A stretch of DNA of 6,844 nucleotides from a virus (lineage: Duplodnaviria; Heunggongvirae; Uroviricota; Caudoviricetes), in IMG/VR virus record IMGVR_UViG_2687453529_000005. One strand, written 5' to 3'. How positions within the stretch are numbered: the stretch's first letter is position 1; every line of letters begins with the position of its first letter. Below the pieces are notes generated by a model. That model searched no databases, was not told where the DNA came from, and was given only the letters and a program-made list of their open reading frames with translations. Below are positions 1 through 6,248 of this stretch, piece after piece. Position numbers and translations under genes: made by a program.

Positions 1-54
1 ACGATCAGTAGAGGTGAATAGCGACCCACGACGCTATTCACCATGCCGGTTCAA

Positions 55-402
55 TTACGAATTACTGCGGCGCTGTTGCTTTTCCGCATGTACGCGTTTC
101 ACAATCTTATAAATCCATTGCAGCGTCAGATTATATTTCTTCGCTAATTCGGCGTAGTTGCGCCCATCGCACTCGCTATAGATTTGGTAGTCACGCTCCG
201 ATGCTCGTCCGGAGATCCCCTTAGGGAAATAGATGCTTTGTCCGCCCCAGTTACGCATCATTCGGTCGGCAATGGCAAAACCCACATTTTCTGCCGATGA
301 ACTGTCGAGATTGATGCTTTCAATCAGAACTTGCGATGCATGAAAAGCCAGGTCGTTAATGATCTCCGGTGTCCGGGCCATCTCTTTTGATTTTCGTATC
401 AT
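55..402 (-). CDS. Mor/C-family transcriptional activator (phage middle/late gene activator)
   Basis: 115-aa ORF with the Mor/C signature as I recall it from Mu Mor: ...GGQSIYFPKG...RD..IY...DGRNY.ELAKKYNLTLQWIYKIVKR (C-terminal HTH). GGAG Shine-Dalgarno about 8 nt upstream of the ATG at 400-402 on the minus strand. Oriented divergently from the lysis/tail genes. Confidence 0.8.
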   Translation of the reverse strand: MIRKSKEMARTPEIINDLAFHASQVLIESINLDSSSAENVGFAIADRMMRNWGGQSIYFPKGISGRASERDYQIYSECDGRNYAELAKKYNLTLQWIYKIVKRVHAEKQQRRSNS

Positions 403-623
403 TTTTCATCTCCATATATCTTGCATCCTGAATAAGACCCGATGCGTGTAAAACCACGGATATACGCTAAGCAGTTGTCATTACTGCTACTCAATACATT
501 CAATAAACAAATAAACAATCACCAAAAATATAAACTTTTAATATTAATGAACGTCATAAATTCACGAAATAAATATATTGTTTGGATTATGTTTCTTATC
601 AACAGGAGTATCATTTTACACTA

Positions 624-643
624 TACTGTATACATATACAGTA
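624..643. promoter_or_regulatory. Candidate LexA (SOS) box
   Basis: TACTGTATACATATACAGTA matches the E. coli LexA consensus TACTGTATATATATACAGTA at 19 of 20 positions, with CTGT-N8-ACAG intact. It overlaps a possible rightward sigma70 promoter (-35 TCAACA at 599-604, 17-bp spacer, -10 TATACT at 622-627). Lies in the AT-rich divergent region between the Mor-like gene and the lysis operon. Confidence 0.65.
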
Positions 644-939
644 TTATTTTTACCTGTAGAGTAAAAAGATCGTTTCCCTCACAGTCGCTGACTTTCTTAA
701 ACAAACTTTAAAAATCAAATAACTATCGACTATTCCTACGATCCACCATCATCTTTCCCCTGCATAATGACGCGCTTATTAGCCTGGTCACCTTTTGCTC
801 TTTAATTGCTGAGTCGATTTATTAGCGGGCTTGTTCATTTATAGAGAATCTATTTTTTAAACTTATTTATTAAAGCTTTTTTCATTCTTCACTGGCGGGG
901 TCTGACGACACTAAACGCTCACTTATCAGGAGATATCGT

Positions 940-1227
940 ATGAAAAAAGTCACTTTTCCCCGGCTTTCCGGCTGGCTAGTCGCTTCCGCCGCGCTGTTTG
1001 TCGTGATCGGCTGGACCTCTTCCGCACAGATCCCGGTCGTCATTTATAAACTAAGCCTGGTTTCGCTTTCCGCGGTGCTGGGATACTGGCTCGATCGCAG
1101 TTTGTTCCCCTGGGCACGGCCTGACTCTTTTAGCCCCTGGAAGGAACCTCGTTGCTGCGCGGCGGCAATGATTCGCCGCGCCATCATCGTTGCCGCCGTC
1201 TGTCTTTCCGTCGCCTTAGGGCTATAG
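940..1227 (+). CDS. Small membrane protein, holin candidate (first gene of lysis cassette)
   Basis: 95 aa with two to three hydrophobic helices (LSGWLVASAALFVVIGW; LSLVSLSAVLGYWL; AIIVAAVCLSVALGL). Strong SD AGGAGA 7 nt before the ATG. GC-rich with high third-position GC. Stop TAG at 1225-1227 lies 4 nt before the start of the next gene. The overlapping minus-strand ORF 1044-1442 is judged spurious. Confidence 0.55.
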   Translation: MKKVTFPRLSGWLVASAALFVVIGWTSSAQIPVVIYKLSLVSLSAVLGYWLDRSLFPWARPDSFSPWKEPRCCAAAMIRRAIIVAAVCLSVALGL

Positions 1228-1231
1228 TGAT

Positions 1232-1837
1232 GTGGCTGAAATATATCGCGTCTATGATTATTTTCGTTCTTTTCCCCGCTTAACCGCCTCTGAACCGCCG
1301 CGAGCCTCTCTGGCATGGCGAAACGAACTAATTCGTACAGCTCGAGAAGTCTGGGGGCTGAATGCTCCAGTGGCCGACTTTGCCGGGCAATTACACCAGG
1401 AGTCCGCCTGGCAGCCAATGGTACGTTCCCCCGTTGGCGCACAAGGTATGGCGCAATTTATGCCTGCTACAGCGACATGGATAAGCCAGTTGTATCCACA
1501 ATTGCGTGAAAACAAACCGTATAACCCAACCTGGGCGATTCGCGCGCTGGTGCAATATGACCAGCATTTGTGGAAAAACATCTCTGCGAAAAATGATTGT
1601 CAGCGTATGGCGTTTACCCTAAGCGCCTATAACGGCGGTCAGGGGTGGGTTAACCGGGATAAAAAACTGGCTGCATCCAAAGGGTTAGATGCCACTAGCT
1701 GGTTTGGTCATGTTGAGCAAGTCAACGCCGGGCGCAGCGCCACGAACTGGCGAGAAAATCGTCGCTATCCAAAGATGATCCTCTATCAACATGCCGCCCG
1801 CTATTTACTCTGGGGACAGGCAAGCTGTCTTCATTAA
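1232..1837 (+). CDS. Lytic transglycosylase (SLT-domain) endolysin
   Basis: 201 aa containing the family-1 lytic transglycosylase motifs in order: catalytic E-S (QLHQESAWQP), GMAQFMP (the GLMQ motif) and SAYNGGQG (the AYNxG motif). GTG start at 1232 is the first start after the in-frame stop at 1217-1219 and is probably translationally coupled to the upstream gene. No N-terminal signal or SAR-like hydrophobic segment. Confidence 0.8.
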   Translation: MAEIYRVYDYFRSFPRLTASEPPRASLAWRNELIRTAREVWGLNAPVADFAGQLHQESAWQPMVRSPVGAQGMAQFMPATATWISQLYPQLRENKPYNPTWAIRALVQYDQHLWKNISAKNDCQRMAFTLSAYNGGQGWVNRDKKLAASKGLDATSWFGHVEQVNAGRSATNWRENRRYPKMILYQHAARYLLWGQASCLH

Positions 1838-1849
1838 TCAGAGGGGCCG

Positions 1850-2164
1850 ATGAAACTCAGTATCGATTTTTGGGAAGTGATCTCCCTTATGCTTTCCTTC
1901 GTTGGATTAATGTTTGCTGCCGGAAAACTGCTGTTAGCACAAATTGAAAAACGACTTAATGAGCGTTTTGAGTCTCTGGAAAATGCCCGCAGGGAATCAG
2001 AAACAAGTTGGTCGAAACTGGAAAGAGAATTTCTCGAATTTCGTGCCGAGCTTCCGCTGCATTATGTCCGCAGAGAAGATTATCTTCGTGGGCAAGCAGT
2101 ATTAGAAGCGAAGCTGGATGCCTTATATAGCAAAATCGAGCTGTTACAACGTGGCAGTTATTGA
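1850..2164 (+). CDS. Membrane-anchored coiled-coil protein; possible i-spanin-like or other lysis accessory protein
   Basis: 104 aa with an N-terminal hydrophobic segment (VISLMLSFVGLMFAAGKLLLA) followed by a highly charged, heptad-like helical region. SD GAGGGG 6 nt upstream of the ATG. Sits directly after the endolysin gene. No embedded or adjacent lipoprotein (o-spanin) ORF was found. Confidence 0.5.
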   Translation: MKLSIDFWEVISLMLSFVGLMFAAGKLLLAQIEKRLNERFESLENARRESETSWSKLEREFLEFRAELPLHYVRREDYLRGQAVLEAKLDALYSKIELLQRGSY

Positions 2165-2202
2165 AAAATCCCCACCCTTATGTAAGGGTGGGGATTTTTT
2201 TA
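2164..2202 (+). terminator. Rho-independent terminator (likely bidirectional)
   Basis: Perfect GC-rich inverted repeat AAAAATCCCCACCCTTA-TG-TAAGGGTGGGGATTTTT followed by a run of 8 T; the A-run on the 5' side gives a U-tract on the opposite strand as well. Lies immediately after the stop of the 1850-2164 gene. Confidence 0.8.
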
Positions 2203-2308
2203 ACCATTCAATTTTTTCTCTAAATCACATTAAAAGATTCTTCACCTTCGCTGCTTCAGAATACATTTCAACGATAACGAAGTGAGCGGTAATTAAGGTA
2301 CAGCCTAT

Positions 2309-2764
2309 ATGGAAATTTTATCTGTAATGAATTCTGTTGTGACCAGATTACGTGAACACAACTCCGAAATGGATATATTTATTTCATCTAAGGATGCCCA
2401 GAAATATATTCCACAGACACAACGAGTTGCAGTGATTATTAATTATAGCGGTTCTGTCTTTGCTACGCCCGAAAGCAGTAATGCCATCGTGCAACAGCAA
2501 ATACTCCGCTTAACCGCCACCGTTATTGTTGGCAAAAATTGTGATGCATTAAACGCACTTGATCACATACGCAGCGCATTGGGTGGCCTTCCGCTTCCTG
2601 ATTGTGATCGTCTGCTTTGGCTTGAAAAAGAAATTAATACGGGTGAGAGCGGCGGTTTCTGCCGCTACATCCTGGAAATGGCGACCAGCTCGCTGTTTAT
2701 CGCTGAACAGGAAAGCACGGATCTTCCCCTGCTTACGGAAGTTAACTACGAGGAAACTGAATGA
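2309..2764 (+). CDS. Putative tail completion / terminator protein (Mu gp37-like position upstream of sheath)
   Basis: 151-aa ORF with AAGG 10 nt upstream of the ATG. Its stop overlaps the next start in an ATGA arrangement (2761-2764). Function is inferred from gene order in Mu/P2-type tail modules, not from a recognised motif. Confidence 0.5.
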   Translation: MEILSVMNSVVTRLREHNSEMDIFISSKDAQKYIPQTQRVAVIINYSGSVFATPESSNAIVQQQILRLTATVIVGKNCDALNALDHIRSALGGLPLPDCDRLLWLEKEINTGESGGFCRYILEMATSSLFIAEQESTDLPLLTEVNYEETE

Positions 2765-2958
2765 AATACATCTACAACGGCCCAGCAAGCGGCGTCACCC
2801 TTGCCGATGGACAAGAAATCTTATTGTGGCCGAACAGTGAAATTGATCTGCCAGAAGACAACGAGTGGGTCATGACCATGATTGCCCGCAATCATCTGAC
2901 TCCTGTCATCACTCAGGAAGAACAAAATAACGTAGAGGAAATTGTACATGGCAGCTAA
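2761..2958 (+). CDS. Small acidic protein of unknown function (Mu gp38-like position)
   Basis: 65-aa ORF translationally coupled at both ends: ATGA overlap with the upstream gene and an 11-nt overlap with the sheath start. No recognisable motif; supported only by operon context. Confidence 0.4.
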   Translation: MKYIYNGPASGVTLADGQEILLWPNSEIDLPEDNEWVMTMIARNHLTPVITQEEQNNVEEIVHGS

Positions 2959-4372
2959 TTATCTGCACGGTGTAGAAACTATTGAAATTGAAACCGGCCC
3001 GCGTCCGGTTAAAGCGGTAAAATCCGCCGTCATCGCTTTAATCGGTACATCCCCCTGCGGTCCGGTAAATAAACCAACATTATGCCTTTCTGAAAGCGAT
3101 GCTGCGCAGTTTGGCTCGACTCAGGCTAACTTTACGATCCCACAGGCACTGAAGGCAATTTATGACCACGGTGCCGGTACGGTGGTGGTGATTAACGTGC
3201 TGGATCCGGCAAAACATGGCTCCAACATCAGCAATGAGAGTATCACTTTTGATGCTAACAACCAGGCGAAGCTCGCTCACCGCAATGTGCGTAACGTGGT
3301 ACTAAAGCCCTCTTCATCAAATTCATCAACCTTTAACACCGCAGCATTTAGCGTAGATGAACAAACAGGCATAATTACCCGTAAAGGAGCCGACATTCCT
3401 CCTGGTGCGAAAGTTTGTGCCTATTATTCCTGGTGCGACCCTACAAAGGTCACCGCAGCCGATATTATCGGTACCGTAAATACCGCAGGCGACCGCACGG
3501 GGATGAAACTCCTTCAGGACACCTATAACCTGTACGGTTTCTACGCCAAAATCCTGCTTGCTCCTGTGTTTTGTACGCAAAAATCGGTGACTACTGAGCT
3601 GATTGCACAAGCGGAAAAACTCGGTGCGATTACCTACATTGATGCCCCGATTGGGACAACATTCCAGCAGGTATTGGCTGGACGCGGTTCGCAAGGGGCT
3701 ATCAACTTCAATACCAGCTCTGATCGTGCGCGTTTATGTTACCCACATGTCAAAGTTTACGATGGCATCACTAACCAGGAAATTCTTGAGCCTCTCTCTT
3801 CGCGTGCTGCCGGGCTGCGTGCCAAAGTAGACCTCGAAAAAGGTTTCTGGTGGAGCAACTCAAACCAGGAAATTCAGGGTATTACCGGTATTGAACGTTC
3901 GCTTTCCGCAATGATTGATGATCCACAAAGCGAAGTGAATCAGCTCAACGAAAACGGCATTACCACTATTTTCAATAGTTACGGCTCTGGTCTGCGCTTG
4001 TGGGGTAACCGCACAGCGGCATGGCCTACCGTGACCCATATGCGTAACTTTGAAAACGTCCGCCGGACAGGCGATGTAATCAATGAGTCAATCCGTTATT
4101 TCAGTCAGCAGTATATTGATATGCCGATTAATCAGGCACTTATTGACGCGCTGACCGAATCGGTAAATACCTGGGGCCGAAAACTGATTGCCGACGGCGC
4201 ACTGCTTGGCTTTGAGTGCTGGTACGATCCGGCACGAAATTCACCGGCTGAACTCAGCGCCGGGCATTTATTGCTGAGCTATAAATTCACCCCGCCACCG
4301 CCGCTGGAACGTCTGACGTTTGAAACTGAAATTACTTCTGAATATTTAGTCTCTCTGGAGAGCAATAGCTAA
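2948..4372 (+). CDS. Contractile tail sheath protein (P2 FI / Mu L family)
   Basis: N-terminus MAANYLHGVETIEIETGPRPVKAVKSAVIALIGTSP matches the conserved sheath N-terminal pattern (HGV..E...G.R.I...S.A..G.VGT) as recalled for P2 FI and Mu L. About 474 aa. SD GAGGAA 7 nt upstream of the ATG at 2948; the ORF track's TTG at 2942 is less likely. Stop overlaps the tube start (TAATG). Confidence 0.9.
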   Translation: MAANYLHGVETIEIETGPRPVKAVKSAVIALIGTSPCGPVNKPTLCLSESDAAQFGSTQANFTIPQALKAIYDHGAGTVVVINVLDPAKHGSNISNESITFDANNQAKLAHRNVRNVVLKPSSSNSSTFNTAAFSVDEQTGIITRKGADIPPGAKVCAYYSWCDPTKVTAADIIGTVNTAGDRTGMKLLQDTYNLYGFYAKILLAPVFCTQKSVTTELIAQAEKLGAITYIDAPIGTTFQQVLAGRGSQGAINFNTSSDRARLCYPHVKVYDGITNQEILEPLSSRAAGLRAKVDLEKGFWWSNSNQEIQGITGIERSLSAMIDDPQSEVNQLNENGITTIFNSYGSGLRLWGNRTAAWPTVTHMRNFENVRRTGDVINESIRYFSQQYIDMPINQALIDALTESVNTWGRKLIADGALLGFECWYDPARNSPAELSAGHLLLSYKFTPPPPLERLTFETEITSEYLVSLESNS

Positions 4373-4896
4373 TGGCTGGAAAAATTCAAATTAACCGTAT
4401 TACCAACGCCAATATTTATCTCGATGGTAATAACCTTTTAGGTCGTGCAACAGAAATTAAATTGCCGGATGTAAGTTTAATTATGCAGGAGCATAAAGCA
4501 CTGGGCATGGTGGGTAAAATCGAACTCCCGGCAGGTTTCGATAAACTGGAGGGCGAAATTAAATGGAACTCCTTCTATCAGGACGTAATGCGTAAAACGG
4601 CAAACCCGTGGCAGGCGGTTGCATTACAGTGCCGCTCCAGTATTGATTGCTATAACTCCCAGGGGAAAGCGAATCAATTAGCGCTAGTGACACATTTAAC
4701 CGTGATGTTTAAAAAGAATCCACTGGGCACATTTAAACAGAATGAAAACCCGGAATTCAGCAGCGCCTTTGGTTGCACTTATATTAAACAAGTAGTTGAT
4801 GGTGAAACGCTGCTTGAACTTGATTATATGGCCAATATTTTCCGGGTTAATGGTGTGGATCAATTAAGTACCTATCGCAATAACATCGGTGGCTAA
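4372..4896 (+). CDS. Tail tube protein (P2 FII / Mu M family)
   Basis: 174 aa; C-terminus ...FRVNGVDQLSTYRNNIGG closely resembles the P2 FII C-terminus as recalled (...VNGVD.L...R.NIGL). Immediately follows the sheath gene with a 1-nt overlap. Confidence 0.9.
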   Translation: MAGKIQINRITNANIYLDGNNLLGRATEIKLPDVSLIMQEHKALGMVGKIELPAGFDKLEGEIKWNSFYQDVMRKTANPWQAVALQCRSSIDCYNSQGKANQLALVTHLTVMFKKNPLGTFKQNENPEFSSAFGCTYIKQVVDGETLLELDYMANIFRVNGVDQLSTYRNNIGG

Positions 4897-4900
4897 GTTA

Positions 4901-4920
4901 TTCGGGGCTACGGCCCCGAA
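4901..4920 (+). other. Stem-loop between tube and chaperone genes (possible attenuator or mRNA-stabilising hairpin)
   Basis: TTCGGGGC-TACG-GCCCCGAA is a perfect 8-bp GC-rich stem with a 4-nt loop, 5 nt after the tube stop, followed only by CTTT (weak U-tract). Confidence 0.35.
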
Positions 4921-4946
4921 CTTTGCAAAATAAATAAGGACACAAA

Positions 4947-5264
4947 ATGAAAGAACATTATATCTTGCAGTTTCCATTTACGTCGGCAGCAGGAAATAAT
5001 ATCGACACGCTGCAATTACGTCGCCTGAAAGTAAAAGATATGCGCAACGCCCGCCGGATCAGCGAAAAGCCAGAAGAGTGGGATGAACCGCTGATGGCGG
5101 CGATGACCGGACTGGTGCCAGAAGATTTAGCCGAAATGGATTTGCTGGATTACCAGGCATTGCAGAAACGATTTCAATCCATGCTTACCGTGGTTACAGA
5201 ATCCTCCCCTGCTATGGCAGGCAATGGCGCTACTGGCGAGATGGTTTCGCTTTCCGCCCAGTGA
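4947..5264 (+). CDS. Tail assembly chaperone (P2 gpE-like)
   Basis: 105-aa ORF between the tube and tape measure genes, the conserved position of the tail chaperone. SD AAGGA 9 nt upstream. Similarity to P2 gpE is from recall only and is loose; ends ...SLSAQ. Confidence 0.7.
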   Translation: MKEHYILQFPFTSAAGNNIDTLQLRRLKVKDMRNARRISEKPEEWDEPLMAAMTGLVPEDLAEMDLLDYQALQKRFQSMLTVVTESSPAMAGNGATGEMVSLSAQ

Positions 5265-5352
5265 GATAGACGCCCTTACCGTCGATGACTTTAGCAACTG
5301 GCTGGATGAAGCCAGCGCCCAAATAAAAATCGAATATGACTCGCAGACCTGA
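5131..5352 (+). other. Open +1 frame overlapping the chaperone 3' end and extending about 29 codons past its stop (candidate E-prime-type frameshift extension or small overlapping ORF)
   Basis: The frame shifted +1 relative to the chaperone is stop-free from 5131 to the TGA at 5350-5352 and reads ...MALLARWFRFPPSEIDALTVDDFSNWLDEASAQIKIEYDSQT. The -1 frame hits TAG at 5267-5269. An internal ATG at 5224 could alternatively initiate a 42-codon ORF. Confidence 0.4.
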
Positions 5353-5453
5353 TGTCTGCGAGTTTCCCAAGCCCGTCAGGTTTATTTCTTCCCTGCCCCT
5401 TTTTTTAGAAAAATAACCAGCGGGCCATTATCAATATTTAAAGAGAAACAATT

Positions 5454-6248
5454 TTGGCCAACGATATTATTACCCAGCTTCAGGCGCGTAATGAGACGTT
5501 GACGCAGGCAATAGCCCGTTACGGCTCACTCAACGCCAGAACATTGTTAACTCTCTCTACTCAGCAGGCGACAGTTATCAAACTAACGCAGCAGCTTGCC
5601 GATTCCGCTCTCCGCCTGGAGGAAAATAGCCGCAGCCGCGCTAATCTGATGGAGAAAACCCAAACATTTGCCGGGCAATTTAGCAAAGTATTCAATGTTG
5701 AAGCCCCCGACTGGAAGTTGCCGTATGAGTTTCAGGACAACATGGTCAATATGGCGACCAAAGGTGGGATGAATGCTACAACCCGCGAGACGCTCAGCCT
5801 TAATCTGCGCGACTGGAGCATGGATTTTAACCAGCAGCAGACCACCTTACAGAACGCAGCCCAAACGCTGATCGAAGGCAATTTGTCGTCGATGCAGGAT
5901 CTCAACCGTTATATGCCGGAGATCGCCAAAGCTGCCACCGCCACGCGCGAAAGTGCTGAAACGTGGGCGAATGCCGCGCTCGCGACTCATGATCGACTGA
6001 ATATTGCCCCGGAAAATTTCCACGCCGCGCAAAACATGATGTACGGCATTAGCAAAAGCGGTGGGCCTGCCATTGCTGAACAAACGCAGTGGATAGAGAA
6101 ATTTGCAGGTAAAACCGGCGCTCAGGGTCTGGAAGGTATGGCTGAACTGACTGCCGCCATGCAGATCGCAATGAAAAATGGGGCCAGCGCCAGTGCGGCG
6201 GCGGAGAATTTTGAAATGATTTACTGGAGAGTTTATCAAAAGCGTTAA
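5454..6248 (+). pseudogene. Tail tape measure protein, N-terminal fragment only (truncated by deletion)
   Basis: TTG start after the chaperone, in the expected tape measure position, with Ala/Gln-rich helical sequence typical of tape measure N-termini. The ORF stops after about 264 codons, far too short for a sheathed-tail tape measure, and its last ~11 codons (..EMIYWRVYQKR) are read out of frame from cadC-like sequence. Confidence 0.6.

What the first reader, a model, noticed from the sequence alone, without database searches (positions are those of the whole stretch)
940..6214. Lysis cassette joined directly to a contractile-tail module with no head genes: tailocin-like architecture or a decayed prophage
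In Mu-type phages the late region runs lysis, then terminase, portal, protease/scaffold and capsid, then tail. Here the lysis genes (940-2164) are followed after one terminator by tail completion, sheath, tube, chaperone and tape measure genes, with no room for head genes. That is the layout of phage-tail-like bacteriocins such as R-type pyocins, but built from a Mu-order tail core with a Mor/C-type activator rather than the known PrtN/PrtR control. Alternatively the head genes were lost by internal deletion. In this genome the module is certainly defective because the tape measure gene is truncated.
Basis: partly seen in the sequence, partly recalled or inferred. Interest (0 to 1): 0.7.

Follow-up and report, generated by a model that had tools for sequence, protein, structure and literature searches.

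The report
Headless phage-tail weapon cluster, partly copied
The window holds the first third of a head-less, phage-tail "tailocin" gene cluster that sits next to lysC in some E. coli and in Salmonella. This copy is cut short because the mobile element ISEcp1 carried it, together with a CTX-M-14 resistance gene, into the cadC gene.

Summary
Window 940-6214 encodes holin, SLT endolysin, a small membrane protein, a terminator, then Gp37, sheath, tube, chaperone and a truncated tape measure, with a divergent Mor gene and no head genes.

The truncation is not decay. Position 6214 is the right end of an 11,502-bp ISEcp1-blaCTX-M-14 transposition unit inserted in cadC, with a 5-bp duplication AATGA. 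The same genome keeps the complete 15.8-kb cluster at its native lysC site.

The complete cluster runs from Mor to tail fibre and has no capsid, packaging, transposase or integrase genes. It occurs in about 190-200 of 5,426 complete E. coli genomes. It is also lysC-adjacent in Salmonella (STM4198-4219), Superficieibacter and Phytobacter.

All 20 genes are intact in both the E. coli and the Salmonella copy compared. dN/dS is 0.04-0.27 for the 17 genes where it could be computed. The fibre C-terminus is variable.

The nearest head-bearing relatives are BcepMu-like phages. Relative to them, Rz/Rz1 and gp26-gp36 are missing. Carotovoricin of Pectobacterium is a parallel, phylogenetically separate head loss.

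A near-perfect, conserved LexA box lies between Mor and the holin gene.

Verdict: a probably functional, SOS/Mor-controlled R-type tailocin. It is a new member of a known kind, and I found no description of it.

The parts
1..54 (.). Spacer between the lysC stop codon (just before the window) and the Mor stop codon. It lies inside the ISEcp1 transposition unit.
   Evidence: Annotation of the source genome. The window equals L001 15001-21844.
55..402 (-). Mor/C-family late transcription activator, homologue of BcepMu gp01. It is the only regulator gene of the cluster.
   Evidence: Pfam Mor E=7e-38 and phrog_532. 48% identical to BcepMu gp01 and 91% to Salmonella STM4219.
403..939 (.). AT-rich (about 33% GC) divergent regulatory region between Mor and the holin gene.
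   Evidence: Composition. Conserved blocks in a six-genome alignment.
624..643 (.). LexA (SOS) box TACTGTATACATATACAGTA, one mismatch from the consensus. The flanking block CATTTTACAC is invariant. It reads as a -35 TTTACA (615-620) with a -10 TACAGT (637-642) rightward, or as a -10 TAAAAT (618-613) leftward toward Mor.
   Evidence: It is the only CTGT-N8-ACAG in the window; the stricter core CTGTAT-N4-ATACAG matched in 0 of 200 shuffles. It is conserved at the same place in E. coli, Salmonella, two Superficieibacter and Phytobacter. It is absent from carotovoricin, Brenneria, Lonsdalea, Chromobacterium, Lelliottia, BcepMu and PhiKM. Promoter scan.
852..875 (+). Conserved A/T-rich element ATTTTTTAAACTTATTTATTAAAG, 65-88 nt upstream of the holin ATG. 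Candidate Mor-dependent late promoter (inferred).
   Evidence: It has 0-1 mismatch in all lysC-linked clusters and occurs nowhere else in them. It shares the ATTAAA(A)G core with the element upstream of Gp37.
940..1227 (+). Holin (Holin_2-3 family), equivalent to BcepMu gp21.
   Evidence: Pfam E=1e-26 and phrog_1528. tblastn hits BcepMu 11573-11749.
1230..1837 (+). SLT-domain endolysin, equivalent to BcepMu gp22. The native protein starts MWLKYIASMIIFVLFPLNA (signal/SAR-like). In this copy two extra C bases (1277, 1284) frameshift that N-terminus, leaving a GTG-started ORF from 1232.
   Evidence: Pfam SLT and phrog_669. Base-by-base comparison with the native copy and with IMT16316.
1850..2164 (+). 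104-aa membrane protein with an N-terminal TM segment and a coiled coil, homologous to BcepMu gp25. Function unknown. It is not Rz/Rz1.
   Evidence: phrog_462. 45-50% identical to BcepMu gp25 and the PhiKM equivalent, with no hit to Rz. No similarity to Mu gp25. No lipobox ORF in 900-2400.
2166..2200 (+). Intrinsic terminator hairpin that closes the lysis operon.
   Evidence: dG -26.9 kcal/mol. Compensatory stem changes among E. coli, Salmonella, Superficieibacter and Phytobacter.
2212..2266 (+). Conserved promoter-like element (TTTTTTCTCTAAA..ATTAAAAGA ... A-AATAC) upstream of Gp37. Candidate late promoter of the tail operon (inferred).
   Evidence: Alignment of seven genomes. In E. coli the combined motif occurs only here and upstream of the holin gene.
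2309..2764 (+). Gp37-family protein, equivalent to BcepMu gp37. Its role as tail completion/terminator is assumed from its position beside the sheath gene and from my recollection of Mu gene K.
   Evidence: Pfam Gp37 E=4e-32. Synteny with BcepMu gp37.
2761..2958 (+). 65-aa protein, equivalent to BcepMu gp38.
   Evidence: phrog_895 E=4e-35. tblastn hits BcepMu 22271-22423.
2948..4372 (+). Contractile tail sheath.
   Evidence: Pfam Phage_sheath_1/1C and phrog_23 E=4e-143. 71-74% identical to Bcepmuvirus sheaths.
4372..4896 (+). Tail tube.
   Evidence: Pfam Phage_tube E=4e-56.
4947..5352 (+). Tail assembly chaperone (4947-5264) plus an overlapping +1-frame ORF open from 5131 to 5352. This is a probable frameshift-extended chaperone; the slip site was not identified.
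   Evidence: Pfam Phage_TAC_7. Overlapping frame. dS for this gene is unusually low, 0.56 against about 1-2 for its neighbours.
5454..6214 (+). First 253 codons of the 791-codon tape measure gene. It is cut at the transposition-unit end and read through into cadC sequence to a stop at 6248.
   Evidence: Pfam PhageMin_Tail and phrog_28. The full-length gene is 2,376 bp in intact copies. The homology break is at 6214.
6201..6214 (+). Surrogate right end of the ISEcp1 transposition unit, GCGGAGAATTTTGA.
   Evidence: 9 of 14 identical to the inverted IRL. The canonical IRR ACGTGGAATTTAGG lies 9.8 kb upstream.
6215..6219 (.). 5-bp target-site duplication AATGA. The other copy immediately precedes the ISEcp1 IRL.
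   Evidence: Removing the unit and one copy of the duplication restores a 512-aa CadC.
6215..6844 (+). 3' part of cadC, which is interrupted by the transposition unit.
   Evidence: Annotation and reading-frame reconstruction.

Best explanation
There are two layers.

(1) What the window is. It is the right-hand 6.2 kb of an 11.5-kb ISEcp1 transposition unit. ISEcp1-blaCTX-M-14-IS903B first inserted into lysC of an E. coli ST648 strain. In a second transposition ISEcp1 missed its own right end and used a weak surrogate end inside the tape measure gene. That copied the lysC 3' part and the first third of the neighbouring gene cluster into cadC. This explains the truncated tape measure.

(2) What the copied DNA is. 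It is the proximal third of a chromosomal R-type (contractile) tailocin cluster descended from a BcepMu-like transposable phage. The ancestor lost its early/transposition region (except Mor), its Rz/Rz1 spanin genes and the whole head module gp26-gp36. It kept holin, endolysin, the gp25-like protein and a complete tail, baseplate and fibre set.

Proposed mechanism (inferred). DNA damage leads to LexA cleavage, which frees the single conserved SOS box in the Mor-holin intergenic region. Mor is then made and switches on the late promoters in front of the lysis operon, the Gp37/sheath operon and probably the baseplate operon. Tails assemble, holin and endolysin lyse the producer, and the released particles kill related bacteria. 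Their targets are chosen by the variable fibre C-terminus.

Shown here: gene content, synteny, the transposition junctions, conservation, purifying selection, the conserved LexA box and phylogenetic independence from carotovoricin. Inferred: particle production, killing, and the LexA to Mor to late-promoter order.
For: Transposition unit. The ISEcp1 IRL lies at L001 9713 and the unit ends at window 6214. Both ends are flanked by AATGA, and removing the unit restores a 512-aa CadC. The unit matches the native lysC locus of the same genome at 99.97% over 11.5 kb, and the first insertion has its own duplication TGGAA. Five-bp direct repeats are typical of ISEcp1 transposition (PMC8111917).

Head-less and complete. 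The intact clusters encode Mor, holin, SLT, gp25-like, Gp37, gp38-like, sheath, tube, chaperone, tape measure, U, X, D, V, W, J, I, fibre, DUF4376 and a 151-aa protein. None has a capsid, terminase, portal, transposase or integrase gene. They occur in 188-204 of 5,426 complete E. coli genomes; in the five intact copies inspected the cluster lies between lysC and yjbD.

Synteny. Salmonella STM4198-4219, two Superficieibacter genomes and Phytobacter carry the cluster beside lysC as well.

Selection. No gene has an internal stop in either copy. dN/dS is 0.04-0.27 for the 17 genes where it could be computed, with dS about 1-2, like flanking lysC and pgi.

Fibre. The N-half is conserved and the C-half is 26-79% identical. 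The N-terminus of the adjacent DUF4376 protein varies with it.

Ancestry. The closest phages are Bcepmuvirus, with sheath 71-74% identical. Gene-by-gene synteny shows exactly which blocks are missing.

Regulation. The LexA box is conserved across four genera and absent from phage and carotovoricin relatives. Promoter-like elements recur behind terminators.

Expression of the Salmonella orthologue. The STM4213 sheath protein was detected by proteomics (PMC5797601) and its mRNA was induced about 6-fold by indole (PMC3405474).

Precedent. Carotovoricin has the same kind of architecture.
Against: No experiment shows particles or killing for this cluster in any host. I found no paper describing it, but closed-access literature was not searchable.

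No spanin (Rz/Rz1 or unimolecular) is detectable, so release from a Gram-negative producer is not fully explained.

The direction of the LexA-controlled promoter is ambiguous. The best consensus match points toward the holin gene rather than toward Mor.

The late-promoter motif is only partly conserved between genera, and its TTCTTCAC part is found only in E. coli.

Only about 3.5% of complete E. coli genomes keep the cluster, so it is dispensable and often lost.

The window copy cannot make tails. It lacks two thirds of the tape measure gene and all baseplate and fibre genes, and its endolysin signal sequence is frameshifted, unless that is an assembly error.
Confidence: 0.75

Rival explanations
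1. The cluster is a defective Mu/BcepMu-like prophage remnant. It lost its head genes by deletion, is slowly decaying and has no function of its own.
For: It clearly derives from a BcepMu-like phage. It is absent from about 96% of complete E. coli genomes. Individual copies are hit by IS1, ISEcp1 and resistance islands. Sister lineages include elements that look like intermediates, such as Lelliottia L012, which still has a transposase.
Against: All 20 genes are intact in both the E. coli and the Salmonella copy compared, and dN/dS is 0.04-0.27 for the 17 computable genes, at synonymous divergence as deep as the flanking core genes. The same trimmed gene set sits at the same locus in four genera. 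What is missing is precisely everything not needed for a tail plus lysis. A host LexA box is present that the phage relatives lack. The fibre tip is diversified.
Confidence: 0.12
2. The head-less layout or the truncation is an artefact of this genome, caused by misassembly of a repeat or created by the ISEcp1 event itself.
For: The source assembly has several 'frameshifted' genes. It has an N in the native tape measure gene exactly at the repeat boundary. The window copy has two homopolymer-type insertions. A second assembly (WB61) with a similar junction looks reference-guided and contains Ns.
Against: The lysis-to-Gp37 junction is identical in hundreds of independent assemblies and in other genera. 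The cadC junctions have an exact IRL, a 5-bp duplication and a restorable CadC reading frame. A misassembly would not produce these.
Confidence: 0.03
3. The cluster makes contractile tails for a purpose other than bacteriocin killing. Examples are supplying tails to tail-less capsids of another element (a satellite or another prophage), acting on eukaryotic cells, or serving mainly as an SOS-triggered lysis and vesicle-release module.
For: Function is untested. The lysis cassette with Mor and the LexA box is a self-contained SOS lysis module. The Salmonella sheath protein was detected during amoeba infection.
Against: There is no toxin cargo, AAA+ ATPase or eCIS/PVC-type gene, and all structural genes are of the P2/BcepMu tail type. 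The BcepMu head-tail adaptor gp36 is deleted, which argues against joining to heads. The fibre plus chaperone mosaicism is what receptor-driven killing or adsorption predicts.
Confidence: 0.1

Closest known systems
Carotovoricin Er (Ctv) of Pectobacterium (Yamada et al. 2006, as cited in PMC13195805)
   Same: It is a chromosomal R-type tailocin with the same gene families in the same order: Holin_2-3 holin, SLT lytic transglycosylase, gp25-like protein, Gp37, gp38-like, sheath, tube, chaperone, tape measure, baseplate and fibres. It has the same kind of excision of the BcepMu-type head module. Sheath identity is about 75%.
   Different: It has a different locus (tolC_2/ybiB, not lysC). It keeps the Rz spanin. 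No Mor gene lies within 10 kb and there is no LexA box. In a five-protein tree it groups with head-bearing enterobacterial phages to the exclusion of the E. coli/Salmonella clade in 200 of 200 bootstraps, so the head loss was independent.
BcepMu-like transposable phages (genus Bcepmuvirus: BcepMu, phiE255, Klebsiella KP12, Escherichia PhiKM)
   Same: They are the nearest complete phages. Sheath is 71-74% and tube 69-75% identical. The order of lysis and tail genes is identical, and they carry a Mor homologue.
   Different: The phages carry transposase and early genes, Rz/Rz1, and gp26-gp36 (terminase, portal, protease/scaffold, capsid, adaptor) between gp25 and gp37. All of these are absent here.
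R-type pyocins of Pseudomonas aeruginosa and R-syringacin of P. syringae
   Same: They are head-less contractile tail clusters with their own lysis genes, fixed at a chromosomal locus and induced by DNA damage. R-syringacin shows that different phage lineages have been co-opted independently (PMC4542187).
   Different: R-pyocin is P2-derived and controlled by PrtR/PrtN. R-syringacin has a Mu/SfV-type tail. Here the tail is BcepMu-type, the only regulator is Mor, and a canonical LexA box sits in the control region.
ISEcp1 transposition units carrying blaCTX-M
   Same: The unit has an IRL, a 5-bp target duplication, read-through past the normal IRR to a poorly matching surrogate end, and co-mobilised downstream DNA (PMC8111917).
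   Different: The passenger here includes 7.3 kb of chromosomal DNA (lysC' plus a third of a tailocin cluster), picked up after a first chromosomal insertion. The target is cadC.

Membership tests
R-type (contractile) tailocin | Complete set of contractile-tail genes: sheath, tube, chaperone, tape measure, hub/spike (D, V), baseplate wedge (W, J, I), U, X, fibre and fibre chaperone | tested here: met
   All are present and intact in the native cluster of the same genome and in other E. coli and Salmonella genomes. The window copy contains only the sheath-to-partial-tape-measure part.
R-type (contractile) tailocin | No capsid, packaging, replication/transposition or integration genes | tested here: met
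   tblastn with BcepMu and PhiKM TerS, TerL, portal, F, G, protease, capsid, gp36 and transposase gives no hit in the lysC-linked clusters. The annotations agree.
R-type (contractile) tailocin | Own lysis cassette for release | tested here: inconclusive
   Holin and SLT endolysin are present. Rz/Rz1 or any lipobox ORF is absent.
R-type (contractile) tailocin | Maintained by selection rather than decaying | tested here: met
   All 20 genes lack internal stops. dN/dS is 0.04-0.27 for the 17 genes where it could be computed, between E. coli D7 and S. Infantis.
R-type (contractile) tailocin | Produces head-less particles that kill sensitive bacteria | not testable with these tools
   This needs induction, electron microscopy and spot assays. 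Only indirect expression data exist for the Salmonella sheath protein.
Carotovoricin lineage (orthologue of Ctv) | Shares the Ctv head-less ancestor (monophyly with Pectobacterium clusters) and the tolC_2/ybiB locus | tested here: not met
   Bootstrap support for monophyly of the two groups is 0 of 200. Ctv groups with head-bearing phages instead. The locus is lysC, not tolC_2.
Bcepmuvirus prophage (complete or simply deleted) | Transposase and early operon plus a head module between gp25 and gp37 | tested here: not met
   Both are absent. Only Mor remains from the early region.
LexA (SOS) regulon member | Canonical CTGT-N8-ACAG box in the promoter region | tested here: met
   TACTGTATACATATACAGTA lies at 624-643, matched in 0 of 200 shuffles, and is conserved in four genera. 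LexA binding and SOS induction themselves were not tested.
ISEcp1 transposition unit | IRL at one end, 5-bp target-site duplication, and target gene restored when the unit is removed | tested here: met
   The IRL is CCTAGATTCTACGT, AATGA flanks both sides, and a 512-aa CadC is restored. The surrogate end is 9 of 14 identical to the inverted IRL.

The most novel reading that the evidence does not exclude
Salmonella enterica and a minority of E. coli lineages, including the ExPEC clone ST648, share an uncharacterised, functional R-type tailocin fixed next to lysC. It was domesticated from a BcepMu-like transposable phage independently of carotovoricin. It has been rewired to the host SOS system through a LexA box acting with a retained Mor activator, and it is released without a spanin. 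In Salmonella the gtrABC O-antigen modification operon inserted inside the cluster could act as self-protection.
Probability: 0.45. Interest if true: 0.65.

Novelty: new member of a known kind. Interest (0 to 1): 0.5.

Why it matters
If functional, this would be a native contractile bacteriocin of two of the most studied enteric bacteria. It would bear on strain competition in the gut and on Salmonella colonisation, and it could serve as a scaffold for engineered anti-enterobacterial tailocins. It also adds a clean case to the evidence that phage tails are repeatedly domesticated. At least four separate head losses from one phage family are suggested by the related loci; only the separation from carotovoricin was bootstrap-tested. 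For this particular genome, the finding shows that ISEcp1 can move several kilobases of chromosomal DNA together with blaCTX-M-14. Here it inactivated cadC and duplicated an SOS-controlled lysis cassette.

Tried and rejected
- The ST131 'tailocin' of Tantoso et al. is a full P2-like prophage, not this cluster.
- Kosakonicin is P2-like with P2 gene order, not this cluster.
- The 104-aa membrane protein as a spanin or as a Mu gp25 homologue: it matches BcepMu gp25, not Rz, and has no BLASTP similarity to Mu gp25. No lipoprotein ORF lies in 900-2400.
- Rfam found no RNA family in the window.
- Full-text searches for the Salmonella locus tags STM4198-4219, for tailocin with lysC/Typhimurium/Mu-like/Mor, and for BcepMu with tailocin found no description of this cluster as a tailocin.
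- The TTCTTCAC part of the putative late-promoter motif occurs only in E. coli, so only the A/T-rich ATTAAA(A)G part counts as conserved.
- The WB61 assembly cannot serve as independent confirmation of the cadC junction. It contains Ns, lacks an exact IRL and looks reference-guided.
- Similarity of the surrogate ISEcp1 end to the IRR is weak. Many 9-of-14 matches occur by chance in the unit, so the duplication and the restored CadC carry the argument.
- The slip site of the chaperone frameshift was not identified. The overlapping ORF is in the +1 frame, not the usual -1.

Full report
**Observation.** The window is 100% identical to E. coli strain ST648 (NZ_CP008697.1, 487190-494033, reverse strand).
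- Mor, 55-402 on the minus strand
- Holin_2-3 holin, 940-1227
- SLT endolysin, 1232-1837
- 104-aa membrane protein, 1850-2164
- Gp37-family protein, 2309-2764
- 65-aa protein, 2761-2958
- Sheath, 2948-4372
- Tube, 4372-4896
- Phage_TAC_7 chaperone, 4947-5264
- Tape measure N-terminus, from 5454

The 144-bp gap between the membrane-protein gene and Gp37 holds a strong terminator at 2166-2200 (dG -26.9 kcal/mol). Its stem shows compensatory substitutions between genera.

**Why the tape measure is truncated.** In the source genome the window lies inside this arrangement: cadC' - ISEcp1 - blaCTX-M-14 - IS903B - TonB-receptor fragment - lysC' - Mor ... tape measure' - 'cadC.
- The ISEcp1 left inverted repeat starts at L001 9713, and homology to the intact element ends at window 6214.
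- Both ends are flanked by AATGA. Deleting the 11,502-bp unit and one AATGA restores a 512-aa CadC.
- The same genome carries ISEcp1-blaCTX-M-14-IS903B inserted in lysC at the native locus, with its own duplication TGGAA. The complete cluster follows it directly.
- The cadC unit is 99.97% identical to that native stretch.
- The unit's right end, GCGGAGAATTTTGA, matches the inverted IRL at only 9 of 14 positions. The canonical IRR lies 9.8 kb upstream.

This is the usual ISEcp1 read-through. Five-bp direct repeats are typical of it (PMC8111917). The truncation is therefore a transposition boundary, and the window is a partial duplicate.

The native tape measure gene is annotated as frameshifted only because of a single N placed exactly at the repeat boundary, which is an assembly mark. 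The window copy differs from the native copy by one substitution (position 900) and two extra C bases (1277, 1284). The insertions frameshift the signal/SAR-like N-terminus of the endolysin. Whether they are real or assembly errors is open.

**What the intact element looks like.** The full cluster, about 15.8 kb, reads as follows: Mor(-), holin, SLT, gp25-like, Gp37, gp38-like, sheath, tube, chaperone, tape measure (791 aa), U, X, D, V, W, J, I, fibre, DUF4376 protein, 151-aa protein.
- In the five intact copies inspected it lies between lysC and yjbD, and it has no capsid, packaging, transposase or integrase gene.
- It occurs in 188-204 of 5,426 complete E. coli genomes at 95-100% identity. 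Most of the variation is in the fibre region.
- Salmonella carries the syntenic cluster next to lysC (LT2 tags STM4198-STM4219), with gtrABC inserted between V and W.
- A scan of one genome per species found it next to lysC-pgi also in two Superficieibacter genomes and in Phytobacter massiliensis.

**Decay or maintenance.** I compared E. coli D7 with S. Infantis. All 20 genes lack internal stops. dN/dS is 0.04-0.27 for the 17 genes where it could be computed; Mor, the fibre and the DUF4376 gene gave no value. dS is about 1-2, comparable to the flanking core genes lysC (1.2) and pgi (0.73). The fibre has a conserved N-half and a C-half only 26-79% identical, and the N-terminus of the adjacent DUF4376 protein varies with it. 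This pattern indicates a maintained function with a diversifying receptor-binding tip, not a decaying remnant.

**Ancestry.** The closest complete phages are Bcepmuvirus members (BcepMu, phiE255, KP12, PhiKM), with sheath 71-74% identical. The gene-by-gene correspondence to BcepMu is below.

| This cluster | BcepMu |
|---|---|
| Mor | gp01 |
| Holin | gp21 |
| SLT endolysin | gp22 |
| 104-aa membrane protein | gp25 |
| Gp37 | gp37 |
| 65-aa protein | gp38 |
| Sheath onward | gp39 onward |

Missing are the early/transposition region, Rz/Rz1 (gp23/24) and gp26-gp36, which include terminase, portal, protease/scaffold, capsid and the head-tail adaptor. The 104-aa protein is therefore not a spanin homologue. 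It shows no similarity to Mu gp25, and no lipoprotein ORF is embedded in the lysis region.

**Relation to known tailocins.** I classified 80 related loci with BcepMu and PhiKM head proteins.
- Many are complete prophages with head genes.
- A head-less class with Rz is found in Pectobacterium, Samsonia, Brenneria alni and B. izbisi, and Lonsdalea.
- A head-less Chromobacterium class has Mor directly beside Gp37.
- The Rz-less class comprises E. coli, Salmonella, Superficieibacter, Phytobacter and Lelliottia.

The Pectobacterium class is carotovoricin. In the P. carotovorum type strain a TolC-like gene lies directly upstream of the holin gene. That matches the published tolC_2 boundary and gene content (PMC13195805), and that paper cites Yamada et al. 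2006 for the origin of Ctv.

A neighbour-joining tree was built from sheath, tube, D, J and W (1,551 columns, 63 loci, 200 bootstraps). The E. coli/Salmonella clade and carotovoricin are each monophyletic at 100%. They are never monophyletic together. Carotovoricin groups with head-bearing enterobacterial phages in 100% of replicates. So the closest known analogue is carotovoricin, but the head loss was independent.

The ST131 'tailocin' and kosakonicin are P2-like and unrelated to this cluster. R-syringacin is a further independent co-option of a Mu/SfV-type tail.

**Regulation (partly inferred).** The only CTGT-N8-ACAG in the window is TACTGTATACATATACAGTA at 624-643, in the Mor-holin intergenic region. 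Its core CTGTAT-N4-ATACAG matched in none of 200 shuffles.
- It is conserved at the same position in E. coli, Salmonella, Superficieibacter and Phytobacter.
- It is absent from carotovoricin, the other head-less classes, Lelliottia, BcepMu and PhiKM.
- The invariant flank CATTTTACAC can be read two ways. Rightward, it gives a -35 TTTACA with a -10 TACAGT inside the box. Leftward, it gives a -10 TAAAAT for a promoter toward Mor whose -35 region the box covers. I cannot decide between the two.
- A conserved A/T-rich element (852-875) precedes the holin gene. A related one (2212-2240, sharing the ATTAAA(A)G core) follows the terminator in front of Gp37. A third, similar one follows the V-W terminator. 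Its TTCTTCAC part occurs only in E. coli.

The most economical model is that LexA cleavage allows Mor expression, and Mor then activates the late operons. This order is inferred.

**Expression.** For the Salmonella orthologue, the sheath protein STM4213 was detected by proteomics (PMC5797601). Its mRNA rose about 6-fold with indole (PMC3405474). No paper in the searchable library describes the cluster as a tailocin. Closed-access literature could not be checked.

**Verdict.** The closest intact relatives have baseplate and fibre genes and no head genes. The cluster is best filed as a new, apparently uncharacterised member of the R-type tailocins. It is parallel to carotovoricin and differs from it in having Mor plus a LexA box and no spanin. 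Function remains unproven.

Noticed in passing
L001 9713-21214 (window 1-6219 is its right part): An 11.5-kb ISEcp1-blaCTX-M-14-IS903B unit has inactivated cadC. It gives the strain a second chromosomal CTX-M-14 copy and a second copy of Mor plus the lysis cassette.
   Followed up: yes
window 1277 and 1284 (also 900): Two extra C bases and one substitution distinguish this copy from the native copy in the same genome. The insertions frameshift the endolysin's N-terminal signal/SAR-like segment. They may be assembly errors, since the assembly has other 'frameshifted' genes.
   Followed up: partly
L004 (native locus), equivalent to L002 26211/26212: A single N sits in the native tape measure gene exactly where the duplicated segment ends. 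This is why that gene is annotated as frameshifted. It looks like an assembly mark at a repeat boundary.
   Followed up: yes
L005 26227-29062 (S. Infantis; STM4204-4206): The gtrABC O-antigen glucosylation operon is inserted between baseplate genes V and W of the Salmonella cluster, at the terminator/promoter junction. It might provide self-protection against the strain's own particles.
   Followed up: no
L012 1-8000 (Lelliottia wanjuensis): The sister of the lysC-linked clade is also head-less and Rz-less. It is not at lysC, keeps a 583-aa transposase and other early genes between Mor and the holin gene, and has no LexA box. It may be an evolutionary intermediate.
   Followed up: partly
L075-L079, L082, L087 (Chromobacterium spp.): A further head-less class has Mor directly beside Gp37 and the sheath gene, with no lysis genes between them.
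   Followed up: no
L016, L020 (Brenneria alni, B. izbisi); L048, L050, L053 (Lonsdalea): Head-less, Rz-containing relatives lie among head-bearing prophages in the tree. This suggests more independent head losses in this phage family.
   Followed up: partly
L092 1-9000 (E. coli strain 500111): A multidrug-resistance region (IS26, aac(3)-IIe, OXA-1, aac(6')-Ib-cr, tetA) has replaced the first 6.4 kb of the cluster up to mid tape measure. This is another resistance-element hit at the locus.
   Followed up: no
L090 (E. coli WB61): A second assembly shows ISEcp1-lysC'-Mor...tape measure'-cadC. It has different break points, contains Ns and lacks an exact IRL, so it is probably a reference-guided assembly rather than an independent event.
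   Followed up: partly
L006 19834-21758; L002 36561-38485: A convergent nucleotidyltransferase-domain gene and a slipin-family gene lie between the cluster and yjbD in E. coli but not in Salmonella. They may be a separate accessory or defence pair.
   Followed up: no
phage-collection records OR845313, OR845696, OR851066, OR851449: Short unannotated records are deposited as 'Escherichia phage ECO95 1-6-1' and 'Salmonella phage S.Kent 1-2-1'. They match segments of this cluster at 75-80% nucleotide identity. In the sheath-protein search one S.Kent record reaches 96% amino-acid identity.
   Followed up: no
window 442-711 (+): An 89-aa ORF covers the AT-rich regulatory region and spans the LexA box. 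It is not conserved as a reading frame in the six-genome alignment and is probably spurious.
   Followed up: partly
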